This document shows, in pieces, positions 2,304 to 64,000 of a stretch of DNA of 64,000 nucleotides (the first letter of the stretch is position 1; each line of letters starts with the position of its first letter). The position numbers were made by a program, and so were the translations under genes. Location of the stretch: the NCBI GenBank assembly GCA_963839205.1, contig CAWITU010000002.1, forward strand, positions 772 to 64,771. The letters are read 5' to 3'. Under the pieces are notes generated by a model. That model saw only the letters and a list, made by a program, of their open reading frames with translations. It searched no databases and was not told the DNA's origin. Origin of the DNA: an uncultured bacterium (lineage in GTDB: Bacteria > Patescibacteriota > Minisyncoccia > Phycocordibacterales > CAWITU01).

Positions 2304-4702
2304 AGTTGTTTCATAACTTGCCAGCTTGGTCCAACTTTTGCTTCTGCTTTCATCACAATTCCTTCTGTCTCACTAAGCGGCACCACATCTTCCATTACTT
2401 TTTTAATTTTAGTAGCGATACTTTCTAATACATCATCTTGTACTTCATATAATAATTCATCATGAACCTGAAGTAGTGGATAAACTTTTTCCTCTAATTT
2501 TTCTTTAACCAAAAATTCGTCCACTTTAATCATGGCTAATTTAACTATGTCAGCCCCAGTCCCTTGGACTGGGGCGTTTATTGCCATTCTTTCAGCCATC
2601 GCTTTTATAAAAGGTAATTTCGATTTAAGACCCGGAAAATATCTTCTCCTACCAAATAATGTTTCGGTATATCCCCTTCTCATAGCCTCTCCTTTTACAT
2701 TATCCAAATATTCAGCAAGCCCAGAAAACGTTTTAAAGTAATCATCATAAAATTTTTGAGCAGTTGCTCTATCTGATCCCAAATTAGTACGCAAAGCATT
2801 AACTCCCATACCATAAATAATTCCAAAATTTATAACCTTAGCTTGTCTTCTCATTTCTTTATCAACCTTATCAAGTGGAACCCCAAAAACTTCAGAGGCA
2901 ACTGCCGTATGAATATCCTCGCCTTCTTTAAATATAGAAATTAGTTTTTTATCTTTCGAAAGAAAAGCGGCAATACGAAGTTCCATTTGAGAATAATCCA
3001 ATGATAAGAGCGAAAATCCTTTTTCGGCAATAAAAGCCTTACGAATATTTCGGCCAAGTTCACTTTTGATTGGAATATTTTGTAAATTTGGATTTTGTGA
3101 AGCCATTCGTCCGGTAGTGGAACCAGTTTGAATTAGAGTGGTATGAAGTCTCCCGTCTTTTGCGACGAGATCTGGAATTGAATCAATATAAGTAGTTAAA
3201 AGTTTTGAAAGCTCACGATATTTGAGTACTTCTTTGATTATTGGGTGAAGATCAGTCATCTTTTCTAACTCTGATTCTTTGGTTGATTTTGCGCCACCAC
3301 CAGTTTTCTTCTGGTTCTTAACCTTAAGCCCCATTTTTTCAAACAAAATTACTCCGAGCTGTTTTGGTGAAGAGACATTAAATTTCTCCCCGGACATCTC
3401 CCAAATCTTTTCTTCAATACTTGAAAGTTCCTTATGATATTCCTTGGAAAGCCTTTTCAGTTCTGCGGTATCTACCTTTATTCCCCTCTTTTCAATTTTT
3501 CCAATTACAGAAATCAGGGGTAATTCAATTTTTTCAAAAACCTTTTCCAAATCTCTTTTTTTAAGCTCGGCAAAAATAATTTCTGAGGCTTTAGTAAAGT
3601 CCTCAATCTTTGCAAAACTAGTTATGTCCTCTAGGGTCGGATTCGTTATTTCTGAATTAATAATCCAAAGAGCTACTGCTGTTTTTTTAAATTCTATTTC
3701 ATCAATTTTCTGTACTTCTTTTACAGATTCTTTCTCAAGCGAAAATTCTTTCTGACTAATCCCTTGGGCTTCAAAAAAAATCTGATCGAGTCTGGCCGAT
3801 AGGCTTCTAAAATCTAAGTCAGCGAAAAATTTTTTAACCTCGTCCTTTGAAAAAGTTTCTTTCCAAGTTTTTTCTGGTAAATCAAAATCAATTGGAGCGT
3901 CTCGACGAATGGTCGCAAGCATTTTAGAAAATTCCGCCTCTTCCTCACCATCTTGAAGTAATTTAATTATTCTATCTGTTAAACCTTCTTTTTTAAATTC
4001 ATCTGGATTCTTTTTCAAAATGTTGTACATACTTTCTATCGTCCCAAATTTTTGAAGAAGGGTTGATGCGGTCTTTTCACCAATCCCAGCAATGCCAATT
4101 ATGTTATCTGACGGGTCGCCACGTAGTCCTTTAAAATCAGGAAGTAGTTTTGGTGGAAAACCAAAACGATCAACAACCGCTTTTTCGTCATACATAACTG
4201 TGTCATTAATTCCCTTTTTCAAAGTGTAAGCTTTGACTCTATCGCCATCTACCAATTGAAGTGTGTCCATATCTCCGGACGCAATAATAATTTCAATATC
4301 ATTATTGTCTTTCAACTTTTCAACAATCGTTCCCAACATGTCGTCAGCCTCAAACCCTGGCTTGTCATACATTGGAATATTAAAAGATTTAAAAACATCT
4401 CTTGATTTAATTATTTGGGAAATAAGTTCCGGATCAGCCTTTTTTCTACCAGCTTTGTATTCAGCATAAGCCTCGTGCCTATATGTAGGTTCCGGTAAAT
4501 CATAACAAGCGGCTAAATAGTCTGGTTTCAAATCATGAATAATTCGAAGGAGCATGGAAGATAGCCCATATAAACCTCCGGTTGCTTCTCCTTTGCTTGA
4601 GACAAAATCAGGAAGGGCGTGATACGCCCGGTGAAGAATTGCATGAGCATCAAAAAGAATTAGTCTTTTTCTATTTGATTGTGATTTCTCTTTCTTTGTC
4701 AT
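2300..4702 (-). CDS. polA: DNA polymerase I (5'-3' exonuclease + polymerase domains)
   Basis: 800 aa. Contains LILFDAHAILHRAYHAL (5' nuclease), DYSQMELRIAA (motif A), RRQAKVINFGIIYG (motif B) and LQVHDELLYEV (motif C). Confidence 0.95.
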   Translation of the reverse strand: MTKKEKSQSNRKRLILFDAHAILHRAYHALPDFVSSKGEATGGLYGLSSMLLRIIHDLKPDYLAACYDLPEPTYRHEAYAEYKAGRKKADPELISQIIKSRDVFKSFNIPMYDKPGFEADDMLGTIVEKLKDNNDIEIIIASGDMDTLQLVDGDRVKAYTLKKGINDTVMYDEKAVVDRFGFPPKLLPDFKGLRGDPSDNIIGIAGIGEKTASTLLQKFGTIESMYNILKKNPDEFKKEGLTDRIIKLLQDGEEEAEFSKMLATIRRDAPIDFDLPEKTWKETFSKDEVKKFFADLDFRSLSARLDQIFFEAQGISQKEFSLEKESVKEVQKIDEIEFKKTAVALWIINSEITNPTLEDITSFAKIEDFTKASEIIFAELKKRDLEKVFEKIELPLISVIGKIEKRGIKVDTAELKRLSKEYHKELSSIEEKIWEMSGEKFNVSSPKQLGVILFEKMGLKVKNQKKTGGGAKSTKESELEKMTDLHPIIKEVLKYRELSKLLTTYIDSIPDLVAKDGRLHTTLIQTGSTTGRMASQNPNLQNIPIKSELGRNIRKAFIAEKGFSLLSLDYSQMELRIAAFLSKDKKLISIFKEGEDIHTAVASEVFGVPLDKVDKEMRRQAKVINFGIIYGMGVNALRTNLGSDRATAQKFYDDYFKTFSGLAEYLDNVKGEAMRRGYTETLFGRRRYFPGLKSKLPFIKAMAERMAINAPVQGTGADIVKLAMIKVDEFLVKEKLEEKVYPLLQVHDELLYEVQDDVLESIATKIKKVMEDVVPLSETEGIVMKAEAKVGPSWQVMKQL
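2543..2565. repeat. intragenic hairpin, 10-bp perfect stem, 3-nt loop (in polA)
   Basis: GCCCCAGTCC-ctt-GGACTGGGGC, overlying the conserved INAPVQGTGAD segment. Confidence 0.85.
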
Positions 4703-8129: not shown

Positions 8130-9161
8130 ATGTCAAGCGATATAAAAAAAGTGGAACAAAAAGAAGGAATTACCCCTGACGAGGTTTTTCTTGATCAGAC
8201 CCTTCGCCCTTCCAAATGGGACGACTACATTGGTCAAAAAAATATTAAAGAAAACTTAAGAATTCTTTTGGGTGCTGCTATGGAGCGCAATCACCCACCG
8301 GAACACGTATTATTTTATGGGCCCCCAGGTCTCGGCAAAACAACGCTCGCCCACCTCATCGCCAAAGAAATATCTGCTCAAATAAAAGTTACTTCAGGGC
8401 CTGCAATTGAAAAAGTTGGAGACCTCGCCTCAATTCTTACCAATCTTTCAAAAGGAGACATTCTTTTTATTGATGAAATTCATAGACTTAACAAAACTAT
8501 TGAGGAAGTCCTCTACCCTGCTATGGAATCGGGTCAGCTTGATATTATTATTGGCAAAGGTCCATCCGCTAGAACGATCCAACTTGAGTTACCTTCGTTT
8601 ACTTTGATTGCGGCGACGACGAGGATTTCGCTTTTGTCGTCGCCGCTTAGATCCCGTTTTTCCGGCGGCGTCTTCCGACTGGAATTCTATACACCAAACG
8701 AAATTAAAGAAATTGTTAAGCGCTCCTCAAAAATATTAGGTGTTGAGATTCCGGAAGACGCCGCCTCCCTAATCGCCTCGCGCAGTCGTTTTACACCAAG
8801 AACTGCCAACTATCTCCTCAAACGAGTTCGCGACTTTGTTCAAATGAAGAAAGTTCCTCTAACTAAAGAAGCGGCAGATGAGGCTTTAAAACTTTTAAGC
8901 GTTGATTCTCTTGGTCTAACCTCGTCAGACAGAATAATTCTTGAAACCCTAATTAAGAAATTTGGTGGAGGGCCTGTAGGACTTAACACCCTTGCTTCGT
9001 CTCTATCAGAAGAGGAATCGACAATTGAGGAGTTTAATGAGCCATATCTGCTTCAATTAGGTCTTATCGAAAGGACACCACGAGGAAGATTGGCAACTTC
9101 CCTTGCCTACAAACACTTAGGGATTGAATTGCCCGAGAATTTGCAAGGAAAACTTCTTTAA
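8130..9161 (+). CDS. ruvB: Holliday junction branch migration helicase RuvB
   Basis: 343 aa with [12 protein letters not shown], Walker [16 protein letters not shown], and [15 protein letters not shown]. Confidence 0.95.
8610..8646. repeat. intragenic hairpin, 11-bp perfect GC-rich stem, 15-nt loop (in ruvB)
   Basis: GCGGCGACGAC...GTCGTCGCCGC, encoding the conserved [12 protein letters not shown]. Confidence 0.85.
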
Positions 9162-10763: not shown

Positions 10764-11943
10764 CCCTAATCTTGAGAAATCGTTTCTTACCGACTCTTAA
10801 ATTTAAATCTGACACAACCGAGAAATTCCTATCAAGGATTTTCTCGGTTGTTTCTATATTTTCTATTGCCCCTTCTTTAATGAGGCGAGCAAAGTCTGAT
10901 TTTGATGCAGTAACAGAATTTTCAAGAAGAACATCTGAGAGCATCATTCCTTTTTTAACTTGAACTTCTTCGGCGGTATCTGGAATACCGCCTTTCTTAA
11001 AGGCGGCTTCAAATTGGGAAGCCGCCTCTTCTGCTTTCTCTTTGTTGTGGTAAATAGAAACGATTTCAAGAGCTAATCTTTCTTTAATTTTCTTTGGATT
11101 CTCCCCTTTTTTAATTTCTTCTTCAATCTTTTTAATTTCTTCAATTGAAATATCTGTGCAAAGCAAAAAATACTTAATAATTAATTCATCTTTTATTGAA
11201 AGTACTTTTCCAAACATATCTAACGGCTCATCATCAATATTAATAACATTCCCCCAACTTGTAGACATTTTTCTACCATCAGTTCCTTCGAGCATTGAGG
11301 TGACTAAGATATCCTGCTCGTCCATTCCATAAAACTTCTGAATTGTTCTCCCAGCCTTCACGTTAAAGAGCTGATCAAAGCCCCCAATTTCAACATCGGC
11401 CTTAACAGCCACAGAATCATACCCCTGCATAAGTGGATACATAAATTCTAGAAGAGAAACCTCTTCTCCATTTTCAAGACGTGTTTTAAAATTTCTTCTA
11501 CTAGACATCTGCAAAACCGAGAAACTGTCGGCTAGTTCGGTTACCTCTTTTAACGTTAATTTTGAAAGCCAAACACTATTGTAAACAATTTCCGCTTTTG
11601 AAATATCAATAATCTTACCGAGATGCTTTTCATAATCTTTTAAATTTTTCTCAATATCCTCTACAGAAAGGGTTGGGCGTTTTTCTAATTTATCAGAGGC
11701 ATCTCCAATCTGGGCAGTGAAGTCTCCAACTATTAAAACAATGTGGTGTCCTAAATCTTGAAATTGTCTTAATTTTTTTAGAGGAATTGCTCTTCCAATA
11801 TGAATTTTTGGTCCTGTTGGGTCAATGCCGAATTTAATTCGGAGTTTTTTCCCACTCAAAAGTTTTTCTTCTAGTGTTTTTTTAACTATTATTTCTTCTA
11901 CACCACGATTCAGGAGTTCAGAGATTTTTTCCTTCATCCACAT
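10756..11943 (-). CDS. tyrS: tyrosine--tRNA ligase
   Basis: 395 aa class I aaRS. HIGRAI (HIGH-like), KMSTS (KMSKS), and a C-terminal S4-like domain (SKSDFARLIKEGAI). Confidence 0.9.
   Translation of the reverse strand: MWMKEKISELLNRGVEEIIVKKTLEEKLLSGKKLRIKFGIDPTGPKIHIGRAIPLKKLRQFQDLGHHIVLIVGDFTAQIGDASDKLEKRPTLSVEDIEKNLKDYEKHLGKIIDISKAEIVYNSVWLSKLTLKEVTELADSFSVLQMSSRRNFKTRLENGEEVSLLEFMYPLMQGYDSVAVKADVEIGGFDQLFNVKAGRTIQKFYGMDEQDILVTSMLEGTDGRKMSTSWGNVINIDDEPLDMFGKVLSIKDELIIKYFLLCTDISIEEIKKIEEEIKKGENPKKIKERLALEIVSIYHNKEKAEEAASQFEAAFKKGGIPDTAEEVQVKKGMMLSDVLLENSVTASKSDFARLIKEGAIENIETTEKILDRNFSVVSDLNLRVGKKRFLKIRVI
10988..11026. repeat. two overlapping intragenic hairpins sharing a GGCGG core (in tyrS)
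   Basis: CCGCCTTT-ctt-AAAGGCGG (10988-11006) and GGCGGCTTC-aaattgg-GAAGCCGCC (11002-11026). These pairings are mutually exclusive. Confidence 0.8.
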
Positions 11944-11974: not shown

Positions 11975-14188
11975 ATGAAAAAAGCCGTTATATTTCTAGA
12001 CAATTTGTCAATAAAAATCGTAAAAGAGGTGTCACGCTTCTTTAGACGATTAAAACATAAAAGCTTTAGAAATCAGGTTATAAAAGAAACTGCCTGGGTT
12101 CTTTTGGCTCTGTTCTTCTTTTTGGCTGGATTTATTACAATCTGGGCGGTAAATCTAAAAATCCCTGATCTCCAGTCTTTTGACGAGACTCAGACTGTTG
12201 GTCAATCAACCAAAATATATGACTCAACTGGCCAAGTACTTCTATATAATTTAAATCAGGACACCAAACGAACAGTTGTTCCGTTTGAACAAATTTCTCC
12301 GAATGTTAAAGAGGCCACTATAGCTATTGAGGATAGAAATTTCTATCAAAATCCAGGAATAGATATTATGGCGATAGTGAGATCAATGTTTACAGACATC
12401 ACAACCCTACATTTTAGTGAGGGGGGATCAACCATTACACAGCAAGTTGTAAAAAATCTTCTCCTGACCCAAGACAAAACAATTACTAGAAAATTAAAAG
12501 AAGTTGTTTTGTCTCTCAAACTTGGGCAAGAACTTAGTAAAGACCAGATTCTTAATATGTACTTAAATAGTGCACCTTATGGTGGAAATATTTATGGAGT
12601 TGAAGAAGCTAGTGAAGAATATTTTGGTATTTCAGCAAATAATTTAGATATCGCCCAAGCTGCCTATCTTGCCGCTCTACCTAATGCCCCAACCTACTAT
12701 TCCCCGTATGGAGCCCATGTGAGTGACCTACAAACTAGAAAAAATTTGGTTCTACAAGCAATGCTCCAAACTAATTACATTACTCAAGATCAATACAATA
12801 GCGCTGTTGCTGAACAGGTTACTTTTTTACCTCAAGTTACAAATAGCATAAAGGCTCCCCATTTTGTAATGTACATCAAACAATATCTTGAGGAAAAATA
12901 TGGTGACGATGTTATTAATAAAGGTTTGAAAGTTATTACCACTCTTGATTACCCTCTTCAAGAAGAAATTGAAAGTGTTGCAAAACCGTACGCTCTCCAA
13001 AACGAAAAAGAATTCAACGCCAGCAACATCGCCGCGGTCGCCATTGACCCCACAAACGGCCAGATTCGAGCCATGGTAGGTTCTCGCGATTTTTTTGACA
13101 CATCTATTGATGGAGAGTTCAATGTCGCGACCGCTTACCGCCAACCAGGTTCTTCATTTAAACCAATCGTTTATTCAGAAGCTTTTATAAAAGGTTACAC
13201 TCCAGACACTGTTGTTTTTGACCTTCCAACCCAATTCTCAACAACTTGTTCCCCAAATGGAACAATCCTTGTTCCTGGCGGAAGCTGTTACGCCCCACAA
13301 AATGATGATGGCACCTTCGCTGGCCCTATTACTTTTAGAGACGCTTTGGCTCAATCAAGAAACGTCCCAGCTATTCAAGTTCTTTATTTGGCCGGTATTC
13401 AAGATTCACTTAATTTGGCTAAAAGCATGGGTATTACGAGTTTAAGTACTGCTGATCATTATGGACTCACCCTAGTTCTTGGAGGTGGTGAAGTTTCGCT
13501 TCTCCAATTGACCAATGCCTATGGGACTTTCGCTACTGGTGGTTACACAAATCCAACTAGCGGTATTCTTGAGGTAACCGATAACCAAGGAAATATTCTT
13601 GAACAGTTCGCAACTTCAACTGACCAAGTAATTCCAGCGCAGGTGGCATATCAAATTTCTGACATATTGTCTGACAACGTTGCTCGAACGCCGGCTTTCG
13701 GTGCAAATTCTCCACTTTATTTTCCTGAAAGAGATGTAGCTGTTAAAACAGGTACCACGAACGATTACCGTGACGCATGGGTCATTGGATACACTCCGCA
13801 TATTGTTATCGGCGCATGGGCAGGTAACAACGATAACACCCCTATGGCCAAACAGATCTCCCGATATTTAATTGTTCCGTTCTGGAATCAAATAATGAGT
13901 TTCGAATTGCCTAGAGTTCCAGTTGAAACATTTCCAAAACCTCTTCCAATAGATCCTAATACCAAATCAGAATTAAAGGGTCTTTGGGAAGGCTATGACG
14001 TGAATGGAAATCCGAATGTTCACTCAATTTTGTATTGGGTTGATAAGAGTGACCCAACAGGACTACCACCAGCAAACCCAGCTGACGACCCACAATTTAA
14101 TTTATGGGAGTATCCTATTAGACTCTGGCTTCAAACTCACACCGTCCCTTCTGTTAACTTACCTAACACTTCTTCAACCCCCATCTAA
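11975..14188 (+). CDS. class A penicillin-binding protein (glycosyltransferase + transpeptidase)
   Basis: 737 aa. N-terminal TM helix, GT51 motifs EDRNFYQNPGID and GGSTITQQ, and transpeptidase motifs SSFKP, SRN, KTGTT. Confidence 0.9.
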   Translation: MKKAVIFLDNLSIKIVKEVSRFFRRLKHKSFRNQVIKETAWVLLALFFFLAGFITIWAVNLKIPDLQSFDETQTVGQSTKIYDSTGQVLLYNLNQDTKRTVVPFEQISPNVKEATIAIEDRNFYQNPGIDIMAIVRSMFTDITTLHFSEGGSTITQQVVKNLLLTQDKTITRKLKEVVLSLKLGQELSKDQILNMYLNSAPYGGNIYGVEEASEEYFGISANNLDIAQAAYLAALPNAPTYYSPYGAHVSDLQTRKNLVLQAMLQTNYITQDQYNSAVAEQVTFLPQVTNSIKAPHFVMYIKQYLEEKYGDDVINKGLKVITTLDYPLQEEIESVAKPYALQNEKEFNASNIAAVAIDPTNGQIRAMVGSRDFFDTSIDGEFNVATAYRQPGSSFKPIVYSEAFIKGYTPDTVVFDLPTQFSTTCSPNGTILVPGGSCYAPQNDDGTFAGPITFRDALAQSRNVPAIQVLYLAGIQDSLNLAKSMGITSLSTADHYGLTLVLGGGEVSLLQLTNAYGTFATGGYTNPTSGILEVTDNQGNILEQFATSTDQVIPAQVAYQISDILSDNVARTPAFGANSPLYFPERDVAVKTGTTNDYRDAWVIGYTPHIVIGAWAGNNDNTPMAKQISRYLIVPFWNQIMSFELPRVPVETFPKPLPIDPNTKSELKGLWEGYDVNGNPNVHSILYWVDKSDPTGLPPANPADDPQFNLWEYPIRLWLQTHTVPSVNLPNTSSTPI

Positions 14189-33362: not shown

Positions 33363-35254
33363 TTATCTGGCAATGTCAGTTAGAAATTGAGATGGAGTGT
33401 TTACTTGTTTACTGCCGTATATTGTTCTCATTTCTGTGTAGGAAAGAAATAATTTTTTCTTGGCTCGAGTTAAAGCAACATAAAAAAGTCTTCTCTCCTC
33501 CTCCGCTTCTTCTTCGGTCAAATTATCATCATCTTTTTCGTGCGGAAATAATCCCTCCTCGAGTCCGGTAATAAAAACATATTCAAATTCTAGTCCTTTT
33601 GAGGCATGCACTGTCATTAATTTTACCGCCCTCTCATTTTTAATCATACTGTCTTGATCGGTCGCGAGCGCGGCATCAGTCAAAAGCGCCGAAATTCCTT
33701 CTTCTGGTTCTAAAATATCATAACGGGTCGCCAAAGTTGCCAATTCTTTCATGTTTTCAATCTTATCTTCGTCCTCTTCTTTACCATGTTTATATAAATT
33801 TTCTGAACCTGTTTCACGAATAATAAATTTAATTGTTTCAGATGGTTTATTTTCTTTTGCAAATCAGCAATTTTTTGTAATAACTTTCGGAAAGACATAA
33901 CTCTTTCAAGAGTCGCTTCTGGCAGAGTTCCTTCAAGTCCAGAAAATATTTTTAATAGACTAACTTTTCCAATTCCTCTAGCTGGGGAATTAATAATTCT
34001 TTTTATGTCGGCATTTGATTCTGGATTAAGAGCAGCTCGAAGATATGATAGTACATCTTTAACCTCTTTTCTTTCAAAGAATCTGGTTCCCAAAAGTTGA
34101 TAAGGAATATTTTTTAAAAGAAAAGATTCTTCAATCACGCGTGATTGAAAGTTTGCACGATAAAGTACCGCAATTTCATTTGCTCTGACACCACTTTGAA
34201 TAAGTTCACGAGCCTTTCCAGAAATGAAATTGGCTTCATCAGCTTCGTCATATCCTTGAAAAAAGGTAATTTTTTCACCCTCAATATTTCTGGTAAATAG
34301 ATTTTTATCTTTTCGGTGAACATTTTTTGAGATAATTTGGTTCGCTGCAGTTAAGATTGTTTGAGTGGATCTGTAATTTTCTTCCAGAAGAATGACTTTG
34401 GCATCTGGGTAATCCTTTTCAAAATTTAGAATATTTTTAATATTTGCTCCTCGCCAGCTATAAATAGTTTGGTCAATATCTCCAACTACTGCAATATTTT
34501 TATATTTTTCTGCTAATTTTTTGGCAATCCGATATTGAACTTCGTTTGTATCTTGATATTCGTCAATGTGAATGTATTTCCAAGTTTCCTGATATCTTTC
34601 CAAAACTTCTTTATCTGATTCTAGAAGGAGCATTGTCTTGAGGAGAAGATCATCAAAGTCCAATGCTTTTTCTTCTTTAAGAATTCTTTCATAACCGTGC
34701 CAAATTTTTGCCGTAACATCAGTGATGTAATCACCTCCTTTTTCTTCTTCGTAACGGCTAGCTGTAAAACCGTTTCCTTTTTCTCTGGAAATTGTTCCGA
34801 GAATTCTATTGGCTTCAAATTGTTTTGGGTCGTACCCCGCTTCAGTCGTCGCTTCTTTGACAGCTCGTTTTGAATCGCCCCGGTCATAAATAGAGAAATG
34901 TTTTGGAAGTCCAAGTTTGGCAGCGTTGTCTTTAAGAATATGAACTCCTAAAGAGTGGAAGGTGCTCATGAACGGCCTCTCTAAGATACTGACTGGCCTG
35001 TTCAGTTCCTTATCTTCCGAAATGGCTTTCTCAACTCTCTCTTTCATTTCTTTAGCGGCTTTGTTGGTGAAGGTTATGGCCAGAATATTTGAGGGGGTTA
35101 CACCATCATGAATCAGGTTCAGGATGCGATGTGTGATAGTTTTGGTCTTGCCGGCGCCTGCGCCGGCAAGAATTAGAAGCGGCCCTCGTGTAGTGAGGGC
35201 CGCTTCCCTCTGTTTTTCATTTAATCCAATAAGATGAGCTTGTTTTTGATCCAT
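33363..35254 (-). CDS. pcrA: ATP-dependent DNA helicase PcrA/UvrD family, one frameshift near 33.85 kb
   Basis: Walker A LILAGAGAGKT, DEYQDTN, and the LEENYRS and VHASKGLEF motifs. ORF 33749-35290 goes out of frame at about 33850 and continues in frame with ORF 33363-33752. The likely start is ATG 35254 (MDQKQAHLIGLNEKQ). Confidence 0.85.
35146..35171. repeat. intragenic hairpin, 12-bp stem, 2-nt loop (pcrA Walker A)
   Basis: TCTTGCCGGCGC-ct-GCGCCGGCAAGA, encoding ILAGAGAGK. Confidence 0.8.
35176..35206. repeat. intragenic hairpin, 12-bp perfect stem, 7-nt loop (pcrA)
   Basis: GAAGCGGCCCTC-gtgtagt-GAGGGCCGCTTC, encoding EAALTTRGPL. Confidence 0.9.
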
Positions 35255-36543: not shown

Positions 36544-38090
36544 GATTCACTTTTCTTCGGTCTATACTGTAGGGCTTCTAATAAGTGTTTATCTTCTACT
36601 TTTTCCTTTTTATCTAAATCGGCTATTGTTCGTCCGAGTTTAATAATTCTGTGATACGAACGTGCTGATAAGTCTAATTTGGTAGCAAAATTATTTAATG
36701 TTTCCAGTGCTCCTTTTTCCAAATTAGCTAATTTTATTATTTCTTTAACCGGGATTTCACTATTTAAATGAATATTTGATGGCAGGTGTTTAAGACGGAT
36801 TCTCTGAATCTCTCTGGCTTGTCTAACGCGCTCGACAACCGAGAAACTTTTTTCACTTTGGTTGTCGAGCGCTAGTTTCTGGTGATCAACAACCGGCGCC
36901 TCTATCCACATATCAATTCTATCCATTATTGGCCCAGATATTTTACGATTATAGTGACTGAGTTCTCTGATACTACAAACGCATGATTTGTTTTTAACTC
37001 CCTGATTGCCACAGGGACACGGATTCATTGTGGCAATCAAAATAAACTGTGCAGGAAAATGCGAAGAACTTTTTACTCTTGAAATAGTAATCATCCGGTC
37101 CTCTAGCGGTTGGCGAAGGGATTCAATAACTCGTTTTTCAAATTCTGGGAATTCATCTAAAAACAAAATCCCTCTGTGGGCTAAAGTAATTTCTCCAGGC
37201 TTTGGGTTTGTACCTCCTCCGACCATGGCAACGTATGAAACGCTATGGTGCGGAGATCTAATGGGAGGTTTAACGATTAGACTTTCTTTAAGAGAGCCTG
37301 CAACTGAATGAATACTGGTAACTTCAAGAATTTCTTCAAAGCTCAAGGGCGGCAGGAGGCCTTTGAAAGCTTTTGCTAACATGGTCTTGCCAGTACCGGG
37401 CGGACCGAAAAGAACAATGTTGTGGCCTCCTGCCGCTGCTATTTCTAATCCCCTTTTAGCCATTTCTTGGCCTTTGATGTCTGATAGATCAATTTCATTT
37501 GGTTCTTTGGTAATAATTATTTTTGTTGGAGGCGCGGCCACCATGGGTGGCCGCGCCTCACTTTTCTCCCCTTTTATATTTACATGATTAATAACTTCTT
37601 CTAATGTGTTTGCTCCAAATATTGAAATATCTCTAATGAGGGCTGCTTCCTCGGTGTTTTCTTTTGGTAAAAATATTTCTTTGAATCCAGCGCGTTTTGC
37701 CTCAATCACCTGTGGCAAAACGCCCCTAATCTTCTGTAGTGTACCGTCTAGTGATAACTCCCCAATAAAAATTCTTTTATCAGCTTTAAATGAAATCTCT
37801 TTTGATGCTAGTAGATATGCCATCGCAATTGCTAAATCAAAAATTGGACCCTCTTTTTTAAGATCTGCTGGAGCCAAAGAAACAATTATCTTTTGGTTTT
37901 TACTTTTTGGTGATGAAAAGCCGCTGTTTTTAATTGCAGATGAAACTCTGTCTCGAGACTCCTCAACTGCTTTATCAGGAAGCCCTACAATAGAAAAAGC
38001 GTGGAGACCTTTTGAAAGATCCACCTCCACGCTTATGATCTGAGCCTTAAGAAGTGAATGTTGGGCACTCCAAACTTTAGCAAAACTCAT
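36540..38090 (-). CDS. comM: YifB/ComM family Mg-chelatase-like AAA+ ATPase
   Basis: 516 aa. Lon-like N-terminal domain, Walker A GPPGTGKTM, LFLDEFPEF, and the cysteine cluster NPCPCG. Confidence 0.9.
   Translation of the reverse strand: MSFAKVWSAQHSLLKAQIISVEVDLSKGLHAFSIVGLPDKAVEESRDRVSSAIKNSGFSSPKSKNQKIIVSLAPADLKKEGPIFDLAIAMAYLLASKEISFKADKRIFIGELSLDGTLQKIRGVLPQVIEAKRAGFKEIFLPKENTEEAALIRDISIFGANTLEEVINHVNIKGEKSEARPPMVAAPPTKIIITKEPNEIDLSDIKGQEMAKRGLEIAAAGGHNIVLFGPPGTGKTMLAKAFKGLLPPLSFEEILEVTSIHSVAGSLKESLIVKPPIRSPHHSVSYVAMVGGGTNPKPGEITLAHRGILFLDEFPEFEKRVIESLRQPLEDRMITISRVKSSSHFPAQFILIATMNPCPCGNQGVKNKSCVCSIRELSHYNRKISGPIMDRIDMWIEAPVVDHQKLALDNQSEKSFSVVERVRQAREIQRIRLKHLPSNIHLNSEIPVKEIIKLANLEKGALETLNNFATKLDLSARSYHRIIKLGRTIADLDKKEKVEDKHLLEALQYRPKKSES
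36828..36872. repeat. intragenic hairpin, 13-bp perfect stem, 19-nt loop (comM)
   Basis: GCGCTCGACAACC ... GGTTGTCGAGCGC. Confidence 0.9.
37005..37039. repeat. intragenic hairpin, 10-bp perfect stem, 15-nt loop (comM)
   Basis: GATTGCCACA ... TGTGGCAATC, over IATMNPCPCGNQ. Confidence 0.8.
37349..37436. repeat. intragenic long-range inverted repeat, 13 bp perfect, 62-nt spacer (comM, brackets Walker A)
   Basis: GCGGCAGGAGGCC (37349-37361) pairs with GGCCTCCTGCCGC (37424-37436). Confidence 0.9.
37539..37569. repeat. intragenic hairpin, 14-bp perfect GC-rich stem, 3-nt loop (comM linker)
   Basis: GAGGCGCGGCCACC-atg-GGTGGCCGCGCCTC, encoding EARPPMVAAPP. Confidence 0.95.
37692..37723. repeat. 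intragenic hairpin, 10-bp perfect stem, 12-nt loop (comM)
   Basis: GCGTTTTGCC ... GGCAAAACGC. Confidence 0.8.
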
Positions 38091-39473: not shown

Positions 39474-41585
39474 TTAGACTTTAATGAAATTGGGATCAGC
39501 TTGTTTAATTGAAAGATTGATTCTTCCTCGGTCATCTACCTCTTTTACAACCACTGGAACCTTGTCTCCCTCTTTTAAATATTTGGAAACTTGATCAATT
39601 CTTGTTGGAGAAATTTCGGAAATATGAACTAAACCTTCAGTGTTGTAACCAATTCTAACAAATGCCCCGAAATCTAGGATTTTTACAACTTCTCCTTCAA
39701 ATCTTTCTCCCTTTTTGTATTCGTGTGTCATGCCCTCAATAATATCTCTAGCTTTTTCAGCTGAACCATTTTTACCAGTCACAAATACGGTGCCATCATC
39801 TTCAATATCAATTTCAGCTCCAGTTTTTTCTTTAATTTCTTTAATTGTTTTTCCGCCTGAACCAATAACCATTCCAATTTGATCTGGTTTAATCTTAATT
39901 GAAAGAATTTTTGGAGCATTTGGAGACAAGTCTGCGCGAGGTTTTGCAATTTCTTTTTCAATAACATCAAGAATCTGAAGTCTGGCTTTTGTAGCCGCTT
40001 CAAGTGCTTCACTTAGAATCTTGAGTGGAATCCCTCCGACTTTAACATCCATTTGTATAGCGGTTACGCCCTGTCTTGTTCCTGCGACTTTGAAATCCAT
40101 GTCACCGTGTTCATCTTCGGGTCCTTGAATGTCTGTAAGAAGTGTATATTTTCCATCCTGAGCATAATTAGGAGATAACATTAGTCCTGAAGCAATTCCA
40201 GCAACCGGTGCTTTGATTGGTACTCCTCCATCCATAAGAGCAAGTGTACTTCCACAAACTGATCCCATTGAAGTTGATCCGTTTGATGCCATTGATTCTG
40301 AAACTAATCTGATTGTGTAAGGAAAAATTTCTTTTGCTGGGATAACCGCGAGTAAAGCTTTCTCGGCAAGATTACCGTGACCAACCGCCCTTCTATTTAT
40401 TCCTCCCATTCTGCCAGTTTCGCCAGAAGAAAAAGGTGGAAAATTATAGTGATGCATAAATCTTTTCTTTTCTTGAATTTCCATACCATCAATTGTCTGT
40501 GAATCCTGTGGTCCACCAAGGGTTAATGCTGATAGGACGTGGGTCCCTCCTCTATAGAAGATTCCTGAGCCATGAAGAATCGGTGAAATACCACCAGCTC
40601 TTGCGAAAAGTGGTCTTAGCTCATCAATTTTACGACTGTCTGCTCTTCGGTTTTTTTCAATTGCCTCTACGTGAAGTATATTGTTAACCATTTCTTCAAA
40701 ATATTCCTTAGCAGGAAACGTATCTCCTTCAGGAAATTTTTCTGTGAAGAGAGTTATCCATTTTTCTTCAAGAGCGTGGATATTATCCTTACCTGCGCCA
40801 GAAAAAACTGCGTTGTCTAATTCTTTTTCAATATTTTCCTTGAATAGTGAGATGACTTCTTCTGAAAGCACCGCTTTTGGAAATTCTTTCTTAACTTTTC
40901 CAATTTCTGTGATTATTTTCTTTTGGAAATCTTGGATTTTTTCTATTTCCGCTGAAGCTAAAGTTAAAGTTTTGTTAACTAGGTCATTTGATACTTCCTT
41001 AGCTGCCGTTTCAATCATATTAATGTTGCCGTCTTTACCACAGGCTACAATTTCTAATTCAATATCATCAGAATGTCTGATTTCGTAAGTTGGGTTTAAA
41101 AGTAAATCATCTTTTTCTTTTAATTTTCCAATTCTAACTGCGCTAGCTGGTCCAGCCCATGGAATATCTGATGTACCAAGTGCTAGTGATGCTGCAATTA
41201 CTCCTAATACATCTGGGTCTTCCTGATCGATTGAAAGAACAGTGATGACAACTTGGATTTCGTTTCTGATGTGTTGCTCGAAGAGTGGCCGAATCGTGCG
41301 GTCCACGATTCGGCCAGACAAAATTGCTTCATCGGACGGTCTGCCTTCACGTCTTGTAAACTGTCCACCTAGAATTTTTCCAGCTGCGTAAAATCTTTCT
41401 TCGTAATCAACAACGAGTGGTAAATAGTTTGTGTCCTTTGGATTTTTGGACATTACGGCCGTCGCTAGAACGACTGTGTTTCCACAACTAACCATCACTG
41501 ATCCATTTGCTTGATCAGCTAAATCATTGAATTCTGCTTTTAAAGTCTTACCACCAACCTCCAACGAGTATTCTTTTTTATTCAT
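39474..41585 (-). CDS. pnp: polyribonucleotide nucleotidyltransferase (PNPase)
   Basis: 703 aa. Two RNase PH domains (GRIVDRTIRPLF, FPPFSSGE), then a KH domain (IGSGGKTIKEI) and an S1 domain. Confidence 0.95.
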   Translation of the reverse strand: MNKKEYSLEVGGKTLKAEFNDLADQANGSVMVSCGNTVVLATAVMSKNPKDTNYLPLVVDYEERFYAAGKILGGQFTRREGRPSDEAILSGRIVDRTIRPLFEQHIRNEIQVVITVLSIDQEDPDVLGVIAASLALGTSDIPWAGPASAVRIGKLKEKDDLLLNPTYEIRHSDDIELEIVACGKDGNINMIETAAKEVSNDLVNKTLTLASAEIEKIQDFQKKIITEIGKVKKEFPKAVLSEEVISLFKENIEKELDNAVFSGAGKDNIHALEEKWITLFTEKFPEGDTFPAKEYFEEMVNNILHVEAIEKNRRADSRKIDELRPLFARAGGISPILHGSGIFYRGGTHVLSALTLGGPQDSQTIDGMEIQEKKRFMHHYNFPPFSSGETGRMGGINRRAVGHGNLAEKALLAVIPAKEIFPYTIRLVSESMASNGSTSMGSVCGSTLALMDGGVPIKAPVAGIASGLMLSPNYAQDGKYTLLTDIQGPEDEHGDMDFKVAGTRQGVTAIQMDVKVGGIPLKILSEALEAATKARLQILDVIEKEIAKPRADLSPNAPKILSIKIKPDQIGMVIGSGGKTIKEIKEKTGAEIDIEDDGTVFVTGKNGSAEKARDIIEGMTHEYKKGERFEGEVVKILDFGAFVRIGYNTEGLVHISEISPTRIDQVSKYLKEGDKVPVVVKEVDDRGRINLSIKQADPNFIKV
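41286..41316. repeat. intragenic hairpin, 13-bp perfect stem, 5-nt loop (pnp)
   Basis: TGGCCGAATCGTG-cggtc-CACGATTCGGCCA, encoding the conserved SGRIVDRTIRP. Confidence 0.95.
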
Positions 41586-57500: not shown

Positions 57501-58816
57501 TATTTTTTAAGTTCCAAATATTTTTTTAGTTCCTCTTTGGCAACTTCAGCGTCACTCCAAATAGTTCGAGTATTGTTTGGTCCCATGATGTATGGGTCGG
57601 TTCCTTTGCCTGTTATGATTACCGTATCACCAGTTTTAGCCTTAGATACAGCCCTCGCAATCGCTTCGCGTCTCTTCATAATTATTTCATATCGTTTCTC
57701 AGTGATTCCCTTAGCCATATCTGCCAGTATGTTCTCGGGTTTTTCATCGTAAGGGTCCTCGTCAGTCAGAATTATTTCGTCACAGTAGGTGTCAGCAATT
57801 TTACCCATCTCAGGTCTTTTCCATTTGTCGCGGCCGCCGCCTGTGTTGCCTAGAACACAGACGCGGCGGCCGGTCTTGAATACTTCATAAATTTTTTTAA
57901 GAGAGTCTGGGGTGTGAGCGTAATCAACAATTACTCTGAAATCTTGTTTCAAAAATAATGGATCAGTTTCATCAAGTGTTATCTTTTGTACTCGGCCAAG
58001 GATTCCTTTAAATTTTTCTAAGGCATTTTTGATTGTATCTAAGTGCACACCTTCTTGCGTCTTCGTATAAGTAATTGCTGCAAGAATATTTGAGATATTA
58101 AAAATCCCTGGCAAGTTTGTACTTATTTTTTCTCCAAGGTAAGTTATTTCAGAACCTTCAGTACCCAAGACAAATGGTTCGGCTTCAGCTAACGAATATG
58201 TTAATTTTTCAAGACCATCAATCTTCAGGAATCTTTCACTTTCTTTATCATCCGCATTAGCTACCAAAATCTTTCTTGGTTTATTAGATTTTGCTAATGC
58301 TAGAGCTATGCTTAGTTTAGCCCTAACGTATTTTTCGTATGAGCCATGCGATTCAATATGTTCGGGTGAAAGGTTGGTGAAAAGCAGAGCGTCAGAATCA
58401 ATAAATCGATGTCGGTATTGTTTTGCTCCCTCGGAAGTCATTTCTAAAATTGCATAGTCACATTTTGCAGTCACTGCATCTCTTAAAAATTTCTGAACAA
58501 AAAATCTTCCTGGAATCGTCATTTTGTATTTATTCGCTCTTGACTCATCCCCAATTTTAAATCGAACAGTTCCTGCGAGTGACGTTTTGTACCCAGCTTC
58601 TTCCAGGATGGCATTTACTACTTCAACTGTTGAGGACTTTCCTTTGGTACCTGTGACCATTACAACTTTAATATTTCGTGAAGGAAAGTTATAAATGACT
58701 GCCCCTGAAAGTGCTAATAGAAAGTGGTAGGAAGGTTGAGCAAAGGCAAAAATATTTCTCGGAATATATTTTTTTATTGTTCGAAGAACATTGTCCGCAC
58801 TCATATTATTTTCCAA
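57500..58816 (-). CDS. murE: Mur ligase family protein (MurE-like)
   Basis: VTGTKGKSST P-loop, IVDYAHTPDSL, VLGNTGGGRDKWKRPEMG, and LTDEDPYDE (DNPR-like). Confidence 0.7.
   Translation of the reverse strand: MENNMSADNVLRTIKKYIPRNIFAFAQPSYHFLLALSGAVIYNFPSRNIKVVMVTGTKGKSSTVEVVNAILEEAGYKTSLAGTVRFKIGDESRANKYKMTIPGRFFVQKFLRDAVTAKCDYAILEMTSEGAKQYRHRFIDSDALLFTNLSPEHIESHGSYEKYVRAKLSIALALAKSNKPRKILVANADDKESERFLKIDGLEKLTYSLAEAEPFVLGTEGSEITYLGEKISTNLPGIFNISNILAAITYTKTQEGVHLDTIKNALEKFKGILGRVQKITLDETDPLFLKQDFRVIVDYAHTPDSLKKIYEVFKTGRRVCVLGNTGGGRDKWKRPEMGKIADTYCDEIILTDEDPYDEKPENILADMAKGITEKRYEIIMKRREAIARAVSKAKTGDTVIITGKGTDPYIMGPNNTRTIWSDAEVAKEELKKYLELKK
57831..57872. repeat. intragenic hairpin, 10+7 bp stem with 2-nt bulge, 6-nt loop (murE-like)
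   Basis: CGGCCGCCGC-CTGTGTT-gcctag-AACACAG-ac-GCGGCGGCCG, encoding RRVCVLGNTGGGRD. Confidence 0.9.
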
Positions 58817-61713: not shown

Positions 61714-61796
61714 CTGATTCTGACTCCAGAGCTATTTTATATTGACGAAACAGACTTTCGTGATATTGTGTGTTTTAAATAAGGAGGGGGATATAA

Positions 61797-62132: not shown

Positions 62133-62163
62133 ATGGCGGCCCTGAATCAATCGGGCCGCCATT
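62132..62163. terminator. bidirectional terminator
   Basis: AATGGCGGCCC-tgaatcaatc-GGGCCGCCATT, followed by TCTGTTT. Confidence 0.8.
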
Positions 62164-62168
62164 TCTGT

Positions 62169-63110: not shown

Positions 63111-63113
63111 ATT

Positions 63114-63851
63114 ATGAAATGCATCGGTATTGATTATGGTAGTAAGAATGTTGGGATTGCGGTGGGGGACAGCGAGCACGGCCTAGCTTTTCCTAAGGCC
63201 GTGCTCGCTAACTCCTCGCGCCTTCTTGCGGAAATCAAAGAAATCGTGACGCAAGAAGGCGCGGGAAAAATCATCCTCGGAGAATCTCAAGATTTTAAAG
63301 GAGTGGACAATCCGATAATGAAGAAAATTCTCTCTTTTAAGAAAGACCTTGAGGATGATTTAAAGATTCCAGTTATTCTTCACCCAGAATTTATGACTTC
63401 AGCTGAGGCAGAAAGATTGCAGGGCAAAAATGACATGATTGATGCTTCAGCTGCCGCACTAATTCTCAAAAGTTTTTTTGATAATAAAAAGAATGAAATC
63501 GTCAAAAGTGAAAAACCCGAAGTCACTTTTGACGATTTTTCTAAAATCCAAATTAAGGTTGGTGAAATTTTGTCAGTCGAGAAGGTTCCAGCAACTGATA
63601 AACTTTTAAAACTGTCTGTTAATTTTAATGAGGCATCACCTCGCCAAATCATTTCTGGTATCGCCCTTCATTTTTCTGACCCAGCGGTGCTTGTTGGCCA
63701 AAAATGTTTTTTCGTAACTAATTTACAGTCTAGAACTATTCGAGGGTATGAAAGCAACGGTATGCTCTTCGCAGTTGGTGGAAAGGATGATATCCCATTC
63801 TCATTAATTAAAGCAGGTCCAGAAATTCCCCCAGGAACTCCCGCAAATTAA
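63114..63851 (+). CDS. ruvX: fusion protein: YqgF/RuvX nuclease domain + C-terminal tRNA-binding (Trbp111/CsaA-type OB) domain
   Basis: The N-terminus MKCIGIDYGSKNVGIAVGD...LPEFMTSAEA is YqgF-like. The C-terminus FSKIQIKVGEILSVEKVPATDKLLKLSVNFNE..RQIISGIALHF..LVGQKCFFVTNLQSRTIRGYESNGMLFA is the tRNA_bind fold. Confidence 0.8.
   Translation: MKCIGIDYGSKNVGIAVGDSEHGLAFPKAVLANSSRLLAEIKEIVTQEGAGKIILGESQDFKGVDNPIMKKILSFKKDLEDDLKIPVILHPEFMTSAEAERLQGKNDMIDASAAALILKSFFDNKKNEIVKSEKPEVTFDDFSKIQIKVGEILSVEKVPATDKLLKLSVNFNEASPRQIISGIALHFSDPAVLVGQKCFFVTNLQSRTIRGYESNGMLFAVGGKDDIPFSLIKAGPEIPPGTPAN
63171..63209. repeat. intragenic hairpin, 14-bp perfect stem, 11-nt loop (ruvX)
   Basis: AGCGAGCACGGCCT-agcttttccta-AGGCCGTGCTCGCT. 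Confidence 0.95.
63217..63263. repeat. intragenic hairpin, 14-bp perfect stem, 19-nt loop (ruvX)
   Basis: CGCGCCTTCTTGCG ... CGCAAGAAGGCGCG, extendable by a G-U and a C-G pair. Confidence 0.95.
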
Positions 63852-63887
63852 TTTAAATTGAATTATTGGCGTGATATACTTAAACCA

Positions 63888-64000
63888 ATGCGGTTTAATA
63901 TTCTTTCATATTTTCCCTCGCCAGCTTTTCTGTCTATGCCATCGTTTGGTATTGATATTGGATCAAAATCAATCCAAGTAGTTGAGCTTAAACAGTCTAA
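63888..64000 (+). CDS. pilM: type IV pilus assembly protein PilM-like, 5' end only
   Basis: MRFNILSYFPSPAFLSMPSFGIDIGSKSIQVVELKQS matches the PilM N-terminus (FGIDIGS.SIK.VEL). It runs off the window end. Confidence 0.55.
   Translation, partial: MRFNILSYFPSPAFLSMPSFGIDIGSKSIQVVELKQS

What the first reader, a model, noticed from the sequence alone, without database searches (positions are those of the whole stretch)
63171..63263. Two back-to-back perfect 14-bp hairpins in the 5' part of ruvX
AGCGAGCACGGCCT/AGGCCGTGCTCGCT and CGCGCCTTCTTGCG/CGCAAGAAGGCGCG lie 7 nt apart, about 60-150 nt into the CDS. Tandem stable stems this close to the start could gate translation or act as a processing site. 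The encoded peptide (SEHGLAFPKAVLANSSRLLAEIKEIVTQEGAG) is only weakly conserved in YqgF proteins, so nucleotide-level selection is plausible.
Basis: seen in the sequence. Interest (0 to 1): 0.65.

Follow-up and report, generated by a model that had tools for sequence, protein, structure and literature searches.

The report
Coding palindromes in a CPR bacterium
The two perfect hairpins in ruvX are real and far beyond chance, but they are three of about sixteen such hairpins written into core genes of this one tiny-genome bacterium and missing from its relatives, so they look like a DNA-level quirk of the lineage rather than a switch controlling ruvX.

Summary
Perfect 14-bp stems lie at 63171-63209 and 63217-63263, inside a RuvX(YqgF)+tRNA_bind fusion gene of a 38%-GC Paceibacteria (CPR) genome. 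A third perfect hairpin (16 bp, 63496-63538) lies at the domain junction. The region folds at -56 kcal/mol against -17±3 for synonymous recodings (z ≈ -11). An independent assembly reproduces hairpin 1 and the first half of hairpin 2.

The gene-specific reading is not supported. The window holds 22 perfect hairpins against 0.8 expected. About 16 sit inside core genes (ComM, UvrD, TyrRS, PolA, RuvB, PNPase and others), each with a unique sequence, at any codon phase and any distance from the start. No orthologue of 88 has comparable structure at these sites. The closest relatives (72% and 86% amino-acid identity) lack the hairpins they cover. The stems are not insertions. One arm keeps consensus residues and the partner arm carries rare residues that are its reverse complement. 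Stems are perfect or absent, with no G·U bias.

The best reading is lineage-specific "coding palindromes", made and kept perfect by template switching or repeat conversion at the DNA level (confidence about 0.5). Selected mRNA structure remains a live rival.

The parts
63114..63851 (+). Host gene: RuvX (YqgF) + tRNA_bind fusion, 245 aa
   Evidence: ORF list. Pfam RuvX 1-123 and tRNA_bind 147-242. About 100 homologues with both domains in Paceibacteria.
63171..63209 (.). Hairpin 1: perfect 14-bp stem, 11-nt loop, 71% GC arms, codon phase 2 (codon position 2 pairs with position 2)
   Evidence: The left arm codes S20, H22, G23 and L24, each with frequency <=0.01 in 95 homologues. The right arm codes consensus-like K-A-V-L. 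Reproduced in Logan contig L112.
63217..63263 (.). Hairpin 2: perfect 14-bp stem, 19-nt loop, 71% GC arms, codon phase 1
   Evidence: The left arm codes consensus R-L-L. The right arm codes rare T46, Q47 (replacing E, 73%) and A50 (replacing V, 69%). The Logan contig ends in its loop at 63247. The relative's contig L052 aligns only from 63269.
63496..63538 (.). Hairpin 3 (not in the finding): perfect 16-bp AT-rich stem, 11-nt loop, at the RuvX/tRNA_bind junction, followed by TTTTTCT
   Evidence: -19.1 kcal/mol here against -3.7 in the 86%-identical relative L052. The left arm lies in the variable linker and the right arm covers conserved D-D-F.
35146..35206 (.). Same class: back-to-back perfect hairpins (11- and 12-bp stems, 4 nt apart), 111-171 nt into UvrD
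   Evidence: Reproduced in independent assembly L111 with one mismatch, in the spacer at 35159.
36828..37723 (.). Same class: four perfect hairpins in ComM (36828-36872, 37003-37039, 37529-37559, 37692-37723) plus one imperfect hairpin (37217-37255)
   Evidence: The arms coincide with lineage-specific residues, for example I(.94)->V, K(.82)->V, T(.97)->S and A(.85)->T. Identical in L111.
1758..1782 (.). Same class: perfect GC-only 11-bp stem in HolA (DNA pol III delta)
2553..2575 (.). Same class: perfect 10-bp stem in PolA
8610..8646 (.). Same class: perfect 11-bp stem in RuvB
10814..11027 (.). Same class: hairpins in the class I aaRS gene (10814-10851, 10973-10991, 11001-11027)
12472..12514 (.). 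Same class: perfect 11-bp AT-rich stem in the PBP gene
41286..41316 (.). Same class: perfect 13-bp stem in PNPase
57831..57872 (.). Same class, imperfect: 16-position GC-rich stem with 2 mismatches in a Mur ligase gene

Best explanation
The two ruvX hairpins, and a third in the same gene, are 'coding palindromes'. They belong to a lineage-specific population of perfect inverted repeats embedded in the core genes of this Paceibacteria (CPR) chromosome. The most likely origin is at the DNA level. During replication, short chance complementarities between nearby codons are extended and made perfect by intra-strand template switching (quasi-palindrome correction, or repeat conversion), and the same process removes later mismatches. 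Protein-level selection only filters which conversions survive. As a result, the arm in the better-conserved peptide segment acts as the master copy, and the arm in the more tolerant segment is rewritten as its reverse complement. The mRNA will fold into these stems and ribosomes must unwind them, but that is a by-product and not a dedicated ruvX control. Shown: existence, excess over chance, uniqueness of each stem, absence from relatives, colinearity with homologues, arm asymmetry, the perfect-or-absent spectrum, and the lack of strand bias. Inferred: template switching as the process, and the absence of a function.
For: There is a window-wide excess: 22 perfect hairpins against 0.77 expected, and 15 GC-rich against 0. 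About 16 are inside core genes, at positions 60-2145 nt from the ORF start and in codon phases 6/5/5. Every stem has a different sequence. They are lineage-specific: related Paceibacteria loci (698 kb) have 0.016 GC-rich intragenic perfect hairpins per kb against 0.156 here. None of 88 ruvX orthologues has comparable structure at these sites, and hairpin 3 is missing in the 86% relative. They are not insertions, because the protein is colinear with 95 homologues with no gaps. There is arm asymmetry: one arm carries consensus residues and the partner arm carries residues with frequency <=0.02 that are its reverse complement, in both ruvX and ComM, including replacements at columns conserved at 82-98%. 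The spectrum is binary: among GC-rich stems with >=12 pairs inside CDSs, 7 are perfect, 0 have one mismatch and 2 have two, whereas neutral decay would give a roughly flat spectrum. The stems are Watson-Crick only, fold about equally on both strands, and their terminating pairs show no sense-strand G.U excess (7 against 5). This points to DNA rather than RNA. Independent assemblies reproduce the hairpins. Published precedent exists: perfect-IR excess explained by preferential correction through template switching in Proteobacteria (PMC5941160); template switching creating and maintaining perfect stems (PMC8794818); the same perfect, scattered, gained-and-lost pattern in coding palindromes of Nematomorpha mitochondria (PMC6649704); and the highest IR densities of all phyla in neighbouring CPR lineages (PMC13155455). 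The window has 7.9 IR bp/kb in that paper's metric, against a bacterial mean of 3.14.
Against: No single template-switch event could be reconstructed, because the nearest relatives are too distant (21% nt divergence or more). Compared with L101 and L052, both arms differ, including synonymous sites on both sides, so each hairpin needs several steps or continuing conversion rather than one copy event. The arms are about 70% GC in a 38% GC genome. In ComM 37529-37559 an AT-rich, Lys-rich consensus peptide was replaced by an Ala/Arg/Pro-rich one, and plain copying does not predict a drift towards GC, so either stability-dependent survival or selection for stable stems is needed. The hairpins are clustered (6 neighbour distances under 400 nt, P=0.001), absent from 13-32.5 kb (P=0.003), and 8 of the 9 host genes encode nucleic-acid enzymes. 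A uniform mutational process does not predict this. Perfect stems could equally be kept by strong selection.
Confidence: 0.5

Rival explanations
1. The hairpins are selected mRNA structures. Stable stems inside the coding regions of a set of core (mainly nucleic-acid-enzyme) genes would tune translation speed, mRNA half-life, or cleavage by a double-strand-specific RNase. The ruvX pair would be the strongest example.
For: There is a very strong departure from synonymous nulls (z = -11.5), with rare GC-ending codons. The shift to GC-rich arms raises stem stability, even at the cost of conserved residues. The perfect state is maintained. The hairpins cluster in particular genes, and 8 of 9 host genes encode nucleic-acid enzymes. 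The window encodes RNase Y and PNPase, so hairpin-sensitive decay machinery is present.
Against: There is no conservation or covariation in any orthologue. Positions within genes and codon phases are arbitrary. The stems start at +58 and do not involve the start codon. There are no G.U pairs inside the stems and no sense-strand bias at the stem ends, whereas selection on RNA would tolerate wobble pairs. There is no Rfam family.
Confidence: 0.25
2. The hairpins are functional DNA structures: hairpins or cruciforms in single-stranded or supercoiled DNA that a structure-specific protein of this organism recognises (replication, recombination or uptake-related).
For: The complementarity is strictly Watson-Crick and equal on both strands. 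The DNA fold is very stable (-40 kcal/mol, z = -9.6). Only perfect stems are seen.
Against: There is no shared sequence or loop motif and loops vary from 3 to 21 nt. There is no conserved position in relatives. No candidate hairpin-binding enzyme (IS200/IS605 TnpA, RAYT) is encoded in the window. Placement inside coding sequence, at a cost to proteins, is hard to justify when intergenic space exists.
Confidence: 0.1
3. The hairpins are copies of a small mobile palindromic element (RPE-, REP- or MITE-like, or a GC cluster) inserted in frame into genes.
For: GC-rich palindromes in an AT-rich genome that sit inside genes resemble Rickettsia palindromic elements and mitochondrial GC clusters (my own knowledge; also discussed in PMC6649704).
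Against: Every stem has a different sequence and no repeat family is found. The host proteins are colinear with homologues, with no inserted residues. No associated transposase is encoded in the window.
Confidence: 0.02
4. The hairpins are due to chance or to an assembly or sequencing artefact.
For: Two assemblies break at hairpin 2. The only mismatch between two assemblies over 4.9 kb lies in a palindrome spacer. So hairpins do disturb sequencing or assembly locally.
Against: Shuffles give 0.77 against 22 observed. Independent Logan contigs reproduce hairpin 1, half of hairpin 2 and seven other hairpins base for base. The reading frames stay open and colinear with homologues, and the deposited protein (P0001) already carries the palindrome-compatible peptide.
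Confidence: 0.01

Closest known systems
[quoted passage not shown] 2019, PMC6649704)
   Same: Both are perfect inverted repeats embedded in functional protein-coding genes, with both arms coding. Both show a perfect-or-nothing spectrum, are scattered over genes, are gained and lost between relatives, and exploit codon degeneracy. In both cases, active repeat conversion or template switching is favoured over function.
   Different: Here the host is a bacterial (CPR) chromosome rather than an animal mitochondrion. The stems are short (10-16 bp against up to 284 bp) and GC-rich in an AT-rich genome. There is no depletion of phase 3 (6/5/5). The loops are relatively long (3-21 nt).
Excess and preferential correction of perfect short inverted repeats in Proteobacteria by template switching (Lavi et al. 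2018, PMC5941160; Monttinen & Loytynoja 2022, PMC8794818)
   Same: Both show an excess of long perfect arms over shuffles that grows with arm length, and both invoke a model in which quasi-palindromes are converted into perfect ones and kept perfect.
   Different: Those analyses concern non-coding regions and RNA genes and report conservation of the IRs among relatives. Here the IRs are inside protein-coding sequence, rewrite amino acids, and are not shared with the available relatives.
Record perfect-IR densities in CPR phyla (Ca. Campbelliibacteriota, Kaiseribacteria, Uhriibacteriota) in the 118,019-genome survey (PMC13155455)
   Same: The organisms belong to the same broad group (Paceibacteria/Parcubacteria). 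The window has 7.9 IR bp/kb in that survey's metric, against a bacterial mean of 3.14 and 9.7-12.0 in those phyla.
   Different: The survey places bacterial IRs mainly in intergenic regions and counts only spacers <=8 nt. The ruvX hairpins (loops 11 and 19) would not have been counted, and about half of the window's IRs are intragenic.
Rickettsia palindromic elements and other mobile palindromes that insert in frame into genes
   Same: Both are palindromic sequences inside open reading frames of a reduced, AT-rich genome.
   Different: RPEs are repeated families that add residues and decay with time. Here each stem is unique, nothing is inserted, and the stems are perfect.
Regulatory hairpins in bacterial mRNAs (for example RNase III sites in the pnp leader, translational attenuators)
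   Same: Both are stable stems in an mRNA that a ribosome or RNase would encounter.
   Different: Regulatory hairpins lie in leaders or at start sites and are conserved with covariation and wobble pairs. These lie within the CDS from +58, are not conserved, and contain no wobble pairs.

Membership tests
Conserved cis-regulatory mRNA structure (translational gate or processing site) | Structure conserved among orthologues, with covariation | tested here: not met
   L101 folds at -15.5 against -56.3 kcal/mol at the homologous codons. Only 1 of 88 orthologues reaches -18 kcal/mol per 48 nt there. No perfect hairpin lies in ruvX in 109 loci at this position.
Conserved cis-regulatory mRNA structure (translational gate or processing site) | Overlaps or sequesters the ribosome-binding site or start codon | tested here: not met
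   The stems start at +58. In the 206-nt fold the AUG lies in a separate weak local helix.
Conserved cis-regulatory mRNA structure (translational gate or processing site) | Match to a described RNA family | tested here: not met
   Rfam at gathering thresholds finds only 6 tRNAs in the window.
Conserved cis-regulatory mRNA structure (translational gate or processing site) | Measurable effect on translation or cleavage | not testable with these tools
   This needs reporter fusions, RNA end-mapping or ribosome profiling.
Template-switch-made or -maintained perfect inverted repeats ('coding palindromes') | Perfect Watson-Crick arms far in excess of chance | tested here: met
   22 observed against 0.77 expected, and 15 GC-rich against 0. 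The synonymous null gives z = -11.5.
Template-switch-made or -maintained perfect inverted repeats ('coding palindromes') | Binary spectrum: perfect repeats dominate, with no excess of slightly imperfect ones | tested here: met
   GC-rich stems in CDSs number 7, 0, 2 and 0 with 0, 1, 2 and 3 mismatches. The numbers are small.
Template-switch-made or -maintained perfect inverted repeats ('coding palindromes') | Arms lie within coding sequence without adding residues, and both arms are translated | tested here: met
   Colinear with 95 (RuvX) and 80 (ComM) homologues.
Template-switch-made or -maintained perfect inverted repeats ('coding palindromes') | Dynamic gain and loss between related lineages | tested here: met
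   Absent in the 72% and 86% relatives and in all other orthologues. There is a 10-fold density difference from related loci.
Template-switch-made or -maintained perfect inverted repeats ('coding palindromes') | Mutation footprint: one arm replaced in a single event by the reverse complement of the other (ancestral reconstruction) | tested here: inconclusive
   Arm asymmetry at the amino-acid level fits this. However, both arms differ from the nearest relatives, which are too distant to polarise the changes. No closer relatives were found.
Mobile palindromic elements (RPE, REP/BIME, MITE, GC cluster) | Copies form a sequence family | tested here: not met
   All stems differ and the repeat finder reports no direct-repeat family linking them.
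Mobile palindromic elements (RPE, REP/BIME, MITE, GC cluster) | Present as an insertion relative to homologues | tested here: not met
   There are no gaps in the homologue alignment over residues 18-61.
Intrinsic (Rho-independent) terminator | GC-rich stem with a short loop followed by a U-tract | tested here: not met
   No terminator-like site is found in 62000-64000. Hairpins 1 and 2 are followed by AACTCCTC and GGAAAAAT. Hairpin 3 has a T-run but an AT-rich stem and an 11-nt loop.

The most novel reading that the evidence does not exclude
This CPR lineage may carry an active process that writes and maintains stable, perfect, GC-rich hairpins inside its own core genes, preferentially those for nucleic-acid enzymes and often as back-to-back pairs, overriding conserved amino acids. 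That process could be either 'selfish' self-perpetuating coding palindromes in a bacterial chromosome or an undescribed hairpin-based layer of post-transcriptional control. It might also explain why neighbouring CPR phyla have the highest inverted-repeat densities known.
Probability: 0.15. Interest if true: 0.7.

Novelty: new member of a known kind. Interest (0 to 1): 0.4.

Why it matters
It removes a tempting but unsupported regulatory story for ruvX. It replaces that story with a genome-level observation: in at least one Paceibacteria lineage, perfect inverted repeats invade core protein-coding genes and change conserved residues. That is a bacterial counterpart of the coding palindromes known from hairworm mitochondria. 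It also gives a concrete handle on the unexplained record inverted-repeat densities of CPR genomes. If the process is mutational, it shows how a replication quirk in a small-population symbiont can shape protein sequences. If it is selected, it points to an unrecognised use of intragenic structure. In practice, such hairpins coincide with contig breaks and base-call differences in metagenome assemblies.

Tried and rejected
(1) Rfam scan of the whole window found only tRNAs.
(2) The promoter/terminator scan around the gene found no terminator-like site.
(3) Mobile-element reading: there are no sequence families, no inserted residues and no hairpin-specific transposase in the window.
(4) Assembly artefact: independent Logan contigs agree.
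(5) Search for close relatives covering hairpins 1 and 2. The exact protein is not retrievable. The 86% relative's contig starts just after hairpin 2. The genome and metagenome scans gave nothing closer than about 72%. ComM and nitroreductase searches gave nothing above 69% and 66%.
(6) Idea that GC-rich patches exist only as hairpin arms: rejected, because only 44 of 274 patches are paired.
(7) Codon-phase bias as in Nematomorpha: none (6/5/5).
(8) 5'-end preference: none.
(9) Sense-strand G.U bias: none (7 against 5).
(10) Gene GC content as an explanation for which genes carry hairpins: no (0.382 against 0.374).
(11) The orthologue MFE map beyond residue 120 was unusable, because few sequences mapped across the variable linker.
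Full report
OBSERVATION. AGCGAGCACGGCCT/AGGCCGTGCTCGCT lies at 63171-63184/63196-63209 with an 11-nt loop. CGCGCCTTCTTGCG/CGCAAGAAGGCGCG lies at 63217-63230/63250-63263 with a 19-nt loop. Both are 100% complementary and they are 7 nt apart. They lie 58 and 104 nt into ORF 63114-63851. That ORF is a RuvX/YqgF domain (Pfam E=7.5e-24) fused to a tRNA_bind domain.

IS IT MORE THAN CHANCE? Yes. The window (38% GC) contains 22 perfect hairpins with stems >=11 bp and loops of 3-30 nt, against 0.77 in dinucleotide shuffles. Fifteen have GC-rich arms, against none in any shuffle. For the 31 codons that span the two hairpins, the fold is -56.3 kcal/mol against -17.4 +/- 3.4 when the same peptide is re-encoded with the genome's codon usage (z = -11.5). 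The stems use codons that make up 8-16% of their synonymous class, and GC3 is 0.61 against 0.31 in the rest of the gene. The folding tool gives z = -6.3 (206 nt, RNA) and z = -9.6 (104 nt, DNA). The sequence is not an assembly product. A Logan contig from run ERR10755936 matches window 61684-63247 without mismatch, which covers hairpin 1 and the left arm and loop of hairpin 2. A second Logan contig matches 34530-39471, which carries seven other intragenic hairpins, with a single mismatch.

WHAT SURROUNDS IT. The organism is a Paceibacteria/Taylorbacteria-like member of the candidate phyla radiation (record titles). The decisive point is that ruvX is not special. Perfect or near-perfect hairpins, each with a different sequence, lie inside HolA, PolA, RuvB, a class I aminoacyl-tRNA synthetase, a PBP, UvrD (another back-to-back pair, 35146-35206), ComM (four perfect and one imperfect), PNPase and a Mur ligase. 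Their distances from the ORF start range from 60 to 2145 nt, and their codon phases are 6/5/5. No Rfam family other than tRNAs is present. There is no terminator-like site around ruvX. The window encodes no hairpin-specific transposase or reverse transcriptase.

RELATIVES. The exact protein exists in public data (P0001, on a 279-kb contig), but its DNA could not be fetched. The nearest relative (L052, 86% amino-acid identity, 21% nucleotide divergence) comes from a contig that starts just after hairpin 2. It covers hairpin 3, which is essentially absent there (-3.7 against -19.1 kcal/mol). All ten differences in the 43 nt lie such that the window version pairs and the relative's version does not. 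The nearest full-length relative (L101, about 72%) has no structure at the homologous codons of hairpins 1 and 2 (-15.5 against -56.3 kcal/mol). Across 88 orthologues, only one reaches -18 kcal/mol per 48-nt window at that position, against -29 here. None of 109 related loci has a perfect hairpin at these sites. Over 698 kb of related Paceibacteria DNA, GC-rich perfect hairpins inside ORFs occur at 0.016 per kb, against 0.156 per kb in the window. Searches with ComM and the upstream nitroreductase found no relative closer than 69% and 66%.

ANATOMY AT THE PROTEIN LEVEL. The hairpins are not insertions, because residues 18-61 align without gaps to 95 homologues. In each hairpin, one arm encodes consensus-like residues and the other encodes residues that are almost never seen in homologues and are the reverse complement of the first arm.
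- Hairpin 1: the right arm is K-A-V-L-A, with V and L being the consensus. The left arm is S20 (frequency 0.00), H22 (0.00, replacing Gly conserved at 85%), G23 (0.01) and L24 (0.01).
- Hairpin 2: the left arm is R-L-L (consensus). The right arm is T46 (0.03), Q47 (0.02, replacing Glu at 73%) and A50 (0.11, replacing Val at 69%).
- Hairpin 3: the right arm covers conserved D-D-F and the left arm lies in the hypervariable linker.
ComM shows the same pattern, with replacements at columns conserved at 82-97% (I->V, K->V, T->S, A->T), always in the direction that completes a base pair. A nucleotide-level force is therefore strong enough to override moderate protein constraint.

RNA OR DNA? Three results favour DNA. 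First, the stems are strictly Watson-Crick and fold about equally well on either strand. Second, among GC-rich stems with at least 12 pairs that lie in CDSs, 7 are perfect, none has one mismatch (G.T counted as a mismatch) and 2 have two. Chance expects about 0.1-0.2 per class, and neutral decay of once-perfect stems would give a roughly flat spectrum. Even after allowing for detection loss, I estimate about 3-5 single-mismatch stems would be expected (my own calculation). Third, the pairs that terminate the perfect stems show no sense-strand G.U excess (7 G.U against 5 A.C). Selection on an RNA helix should tolerate wobble pairs, which arise from the commonest mutations in an AT-biased genome. 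A process that copies one DNA arm from the other would not tolerate them.

MOST LIKELY MECHANISM. The pattern consists of perfect, unique, scattered, lineage-specific repeats that fit the coding sequence and show a perfect-or-absent spectrum. This is the pattern described for coding palindromes in Nematomorpha mitochondria, whose authors argue for active repeat conversion, probably by template switching, rather than function (PMC6649704). Template switching between quasi-palindrome arms is the accepted explanation for the excess of long perfect inverted repeats in Proteobacteria (PMC5941160). It has also been shown to create and maintain perfect stems (PMC8794818). A survey of 118,019 genomes found the highest perfect-IR densities of any phyla in CPR lineages close to this one (PMC13155455). 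In that survey's metric the window scores 7.9 IR bp/kb, against a bacterial mean of 3.14. I therefore read the ruvX hairpins as products of DNA-level template switching or repeat conversion in a lineage prone to it, filtered by protein-level selection, with folding of the mRNA as a by-product (confidence about 0.5).

WHAT DOES NOT FIT. (i) The arms are about 70% GC. In ComM 37529-37559 a Lys-rich consensus peptide has been replaced by an Ala/Arg/Pro-rich one. Copying alone does not predict a drift to GC, although only 16% of the window's 274 GC-rich patches are paired, so GC-rich seeds are plentiful. In phase-2 stems, high GC3 also follows automatically from pairing with G-rich first codon positions (inference). 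(ii) Compared with the relatives, both arms differ, including at synonymous sites, so several steps or continuing conversion are required. L101 shares S-E-H and L052 shares V-T-F without the pairing, which could be either fossils of older hairpins or pre-existing states. (iii) The hairpins are clustered (P=0.001) and absent from 13-32.5 kb, which includes a T4SS-like block (P=0.003). Eight of the nine host genes encode nucleic-acid enzymes, and gene GC content does not explain this. Longer residence of core genes in the lineage is one explanation, and selection is another. These points keep a selected-mRNA-structure model alive (about 0.25) and a DNA-structure function possible (about 0.1).

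VERDICT. This is a new bacterial member of a known kind (perfect inverted repeats or coding palindromes attributed to template switching). Interest is moderate. The ruvX story itself is ordinary once the genome-wide pattern is seen. The genome-wide pattern, in which core proteins of a CPR bacterium are rewritten by hairpins, is worth a whole-genome and population-level follow-up.

Noticed in passing
window 63114-63851; L101 3869-4590: RuvX (YqgF) is fused to a tRNA_bind (Trbp111/CsaA-like) domain, and about 100 Paceibacteria homologues share both domains. In L101 the two domains are separate ORFs overlapping at ATGA. The fusion fits an RNA-processing role for YqgF rather than Holliday-junction resolution.
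   Followed up: partly
window 63496-63545: Hairpin 3 sits exactly at the RuvX/tRNA_bind domain junction and is followed by TTTTTCT. It could act as a weak internal terminator or a pause between the domains. The consensus scan does not flag it (loop 11, AT-rich stem).
   Followed up: partly
window 63247 and 63269 (L112, L052): Two independent assemblies break at hairpin 2. The Logan contig of the same organism ends in its loop, and the contig of the 86% relative aligns only from 6 nt after its right arm, with 9 unrelated bases at its tip.
   Followed up: partly
window 35159: The only difference between the window and the independent Logan contig over 4942 nt (T against C) lies in the 2-nt spacer of the UvrD palindrome 35146-35171. 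This may be a mutational or a sequencing-error hotspot.
   Followed up: no
window 63114-64000 against L052: ruvX differs from the closest relative at 21% of nucleotides, but the next 149 nt (the intergenic region plus the start of a pilM-like gene) differ at only 5%. This suggests mosaic divergence or recombination.
   Followed up: no
window 13000-32500: No perfect intragenic hairpin occurs in this stretch (P=0.003). It holds dnaN, dnaA, yidC and a T4SS-like block (T4SS_pilin, TraG P-loop) with many ORFs lacking any Pfam hit.
   Followed up: partly
window 14447-18410: dnaN and dnaA lie on the minus strand, followed by yidC, and GC skew changes sign at about 17-18 kb. This is probably the replication origin region.
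   Followed up: no
window 2300-4720: PolA gives Pfam hits only for the 5'-3' exonuclease and polymerase domains, with no 3'-5' exonuclease domain hit at E<=1e-5. It also carries a perfect 10-bp hairpin at 2553-2575.
   Followed up: no
window 48719-48750 and 48835-48874: Two long near-perfect intergenic hairpins (13 and 17 pairs, one mismatch each) lie downstream of ORF 48146-48700. The first is followed by TTTT and looks like a terminator. The second is unexplained. Neither matches Rfam.
   Followed up: no
window-wide (hairpin host genes): Eight of the nine genes that carry perfect intragenic hairpins encode nucleic-acid enzymes (PolA, HolA, RuvB, aaRS, UvrD, ComM, PNPase, RuvX), and back-to-back hairpin pairs recur in RuvX, UvrD and the aaRS gene. 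This is a post hoc observation, with a length-weighted P of about 0.007 by hand calculation.
   Followed up: partly
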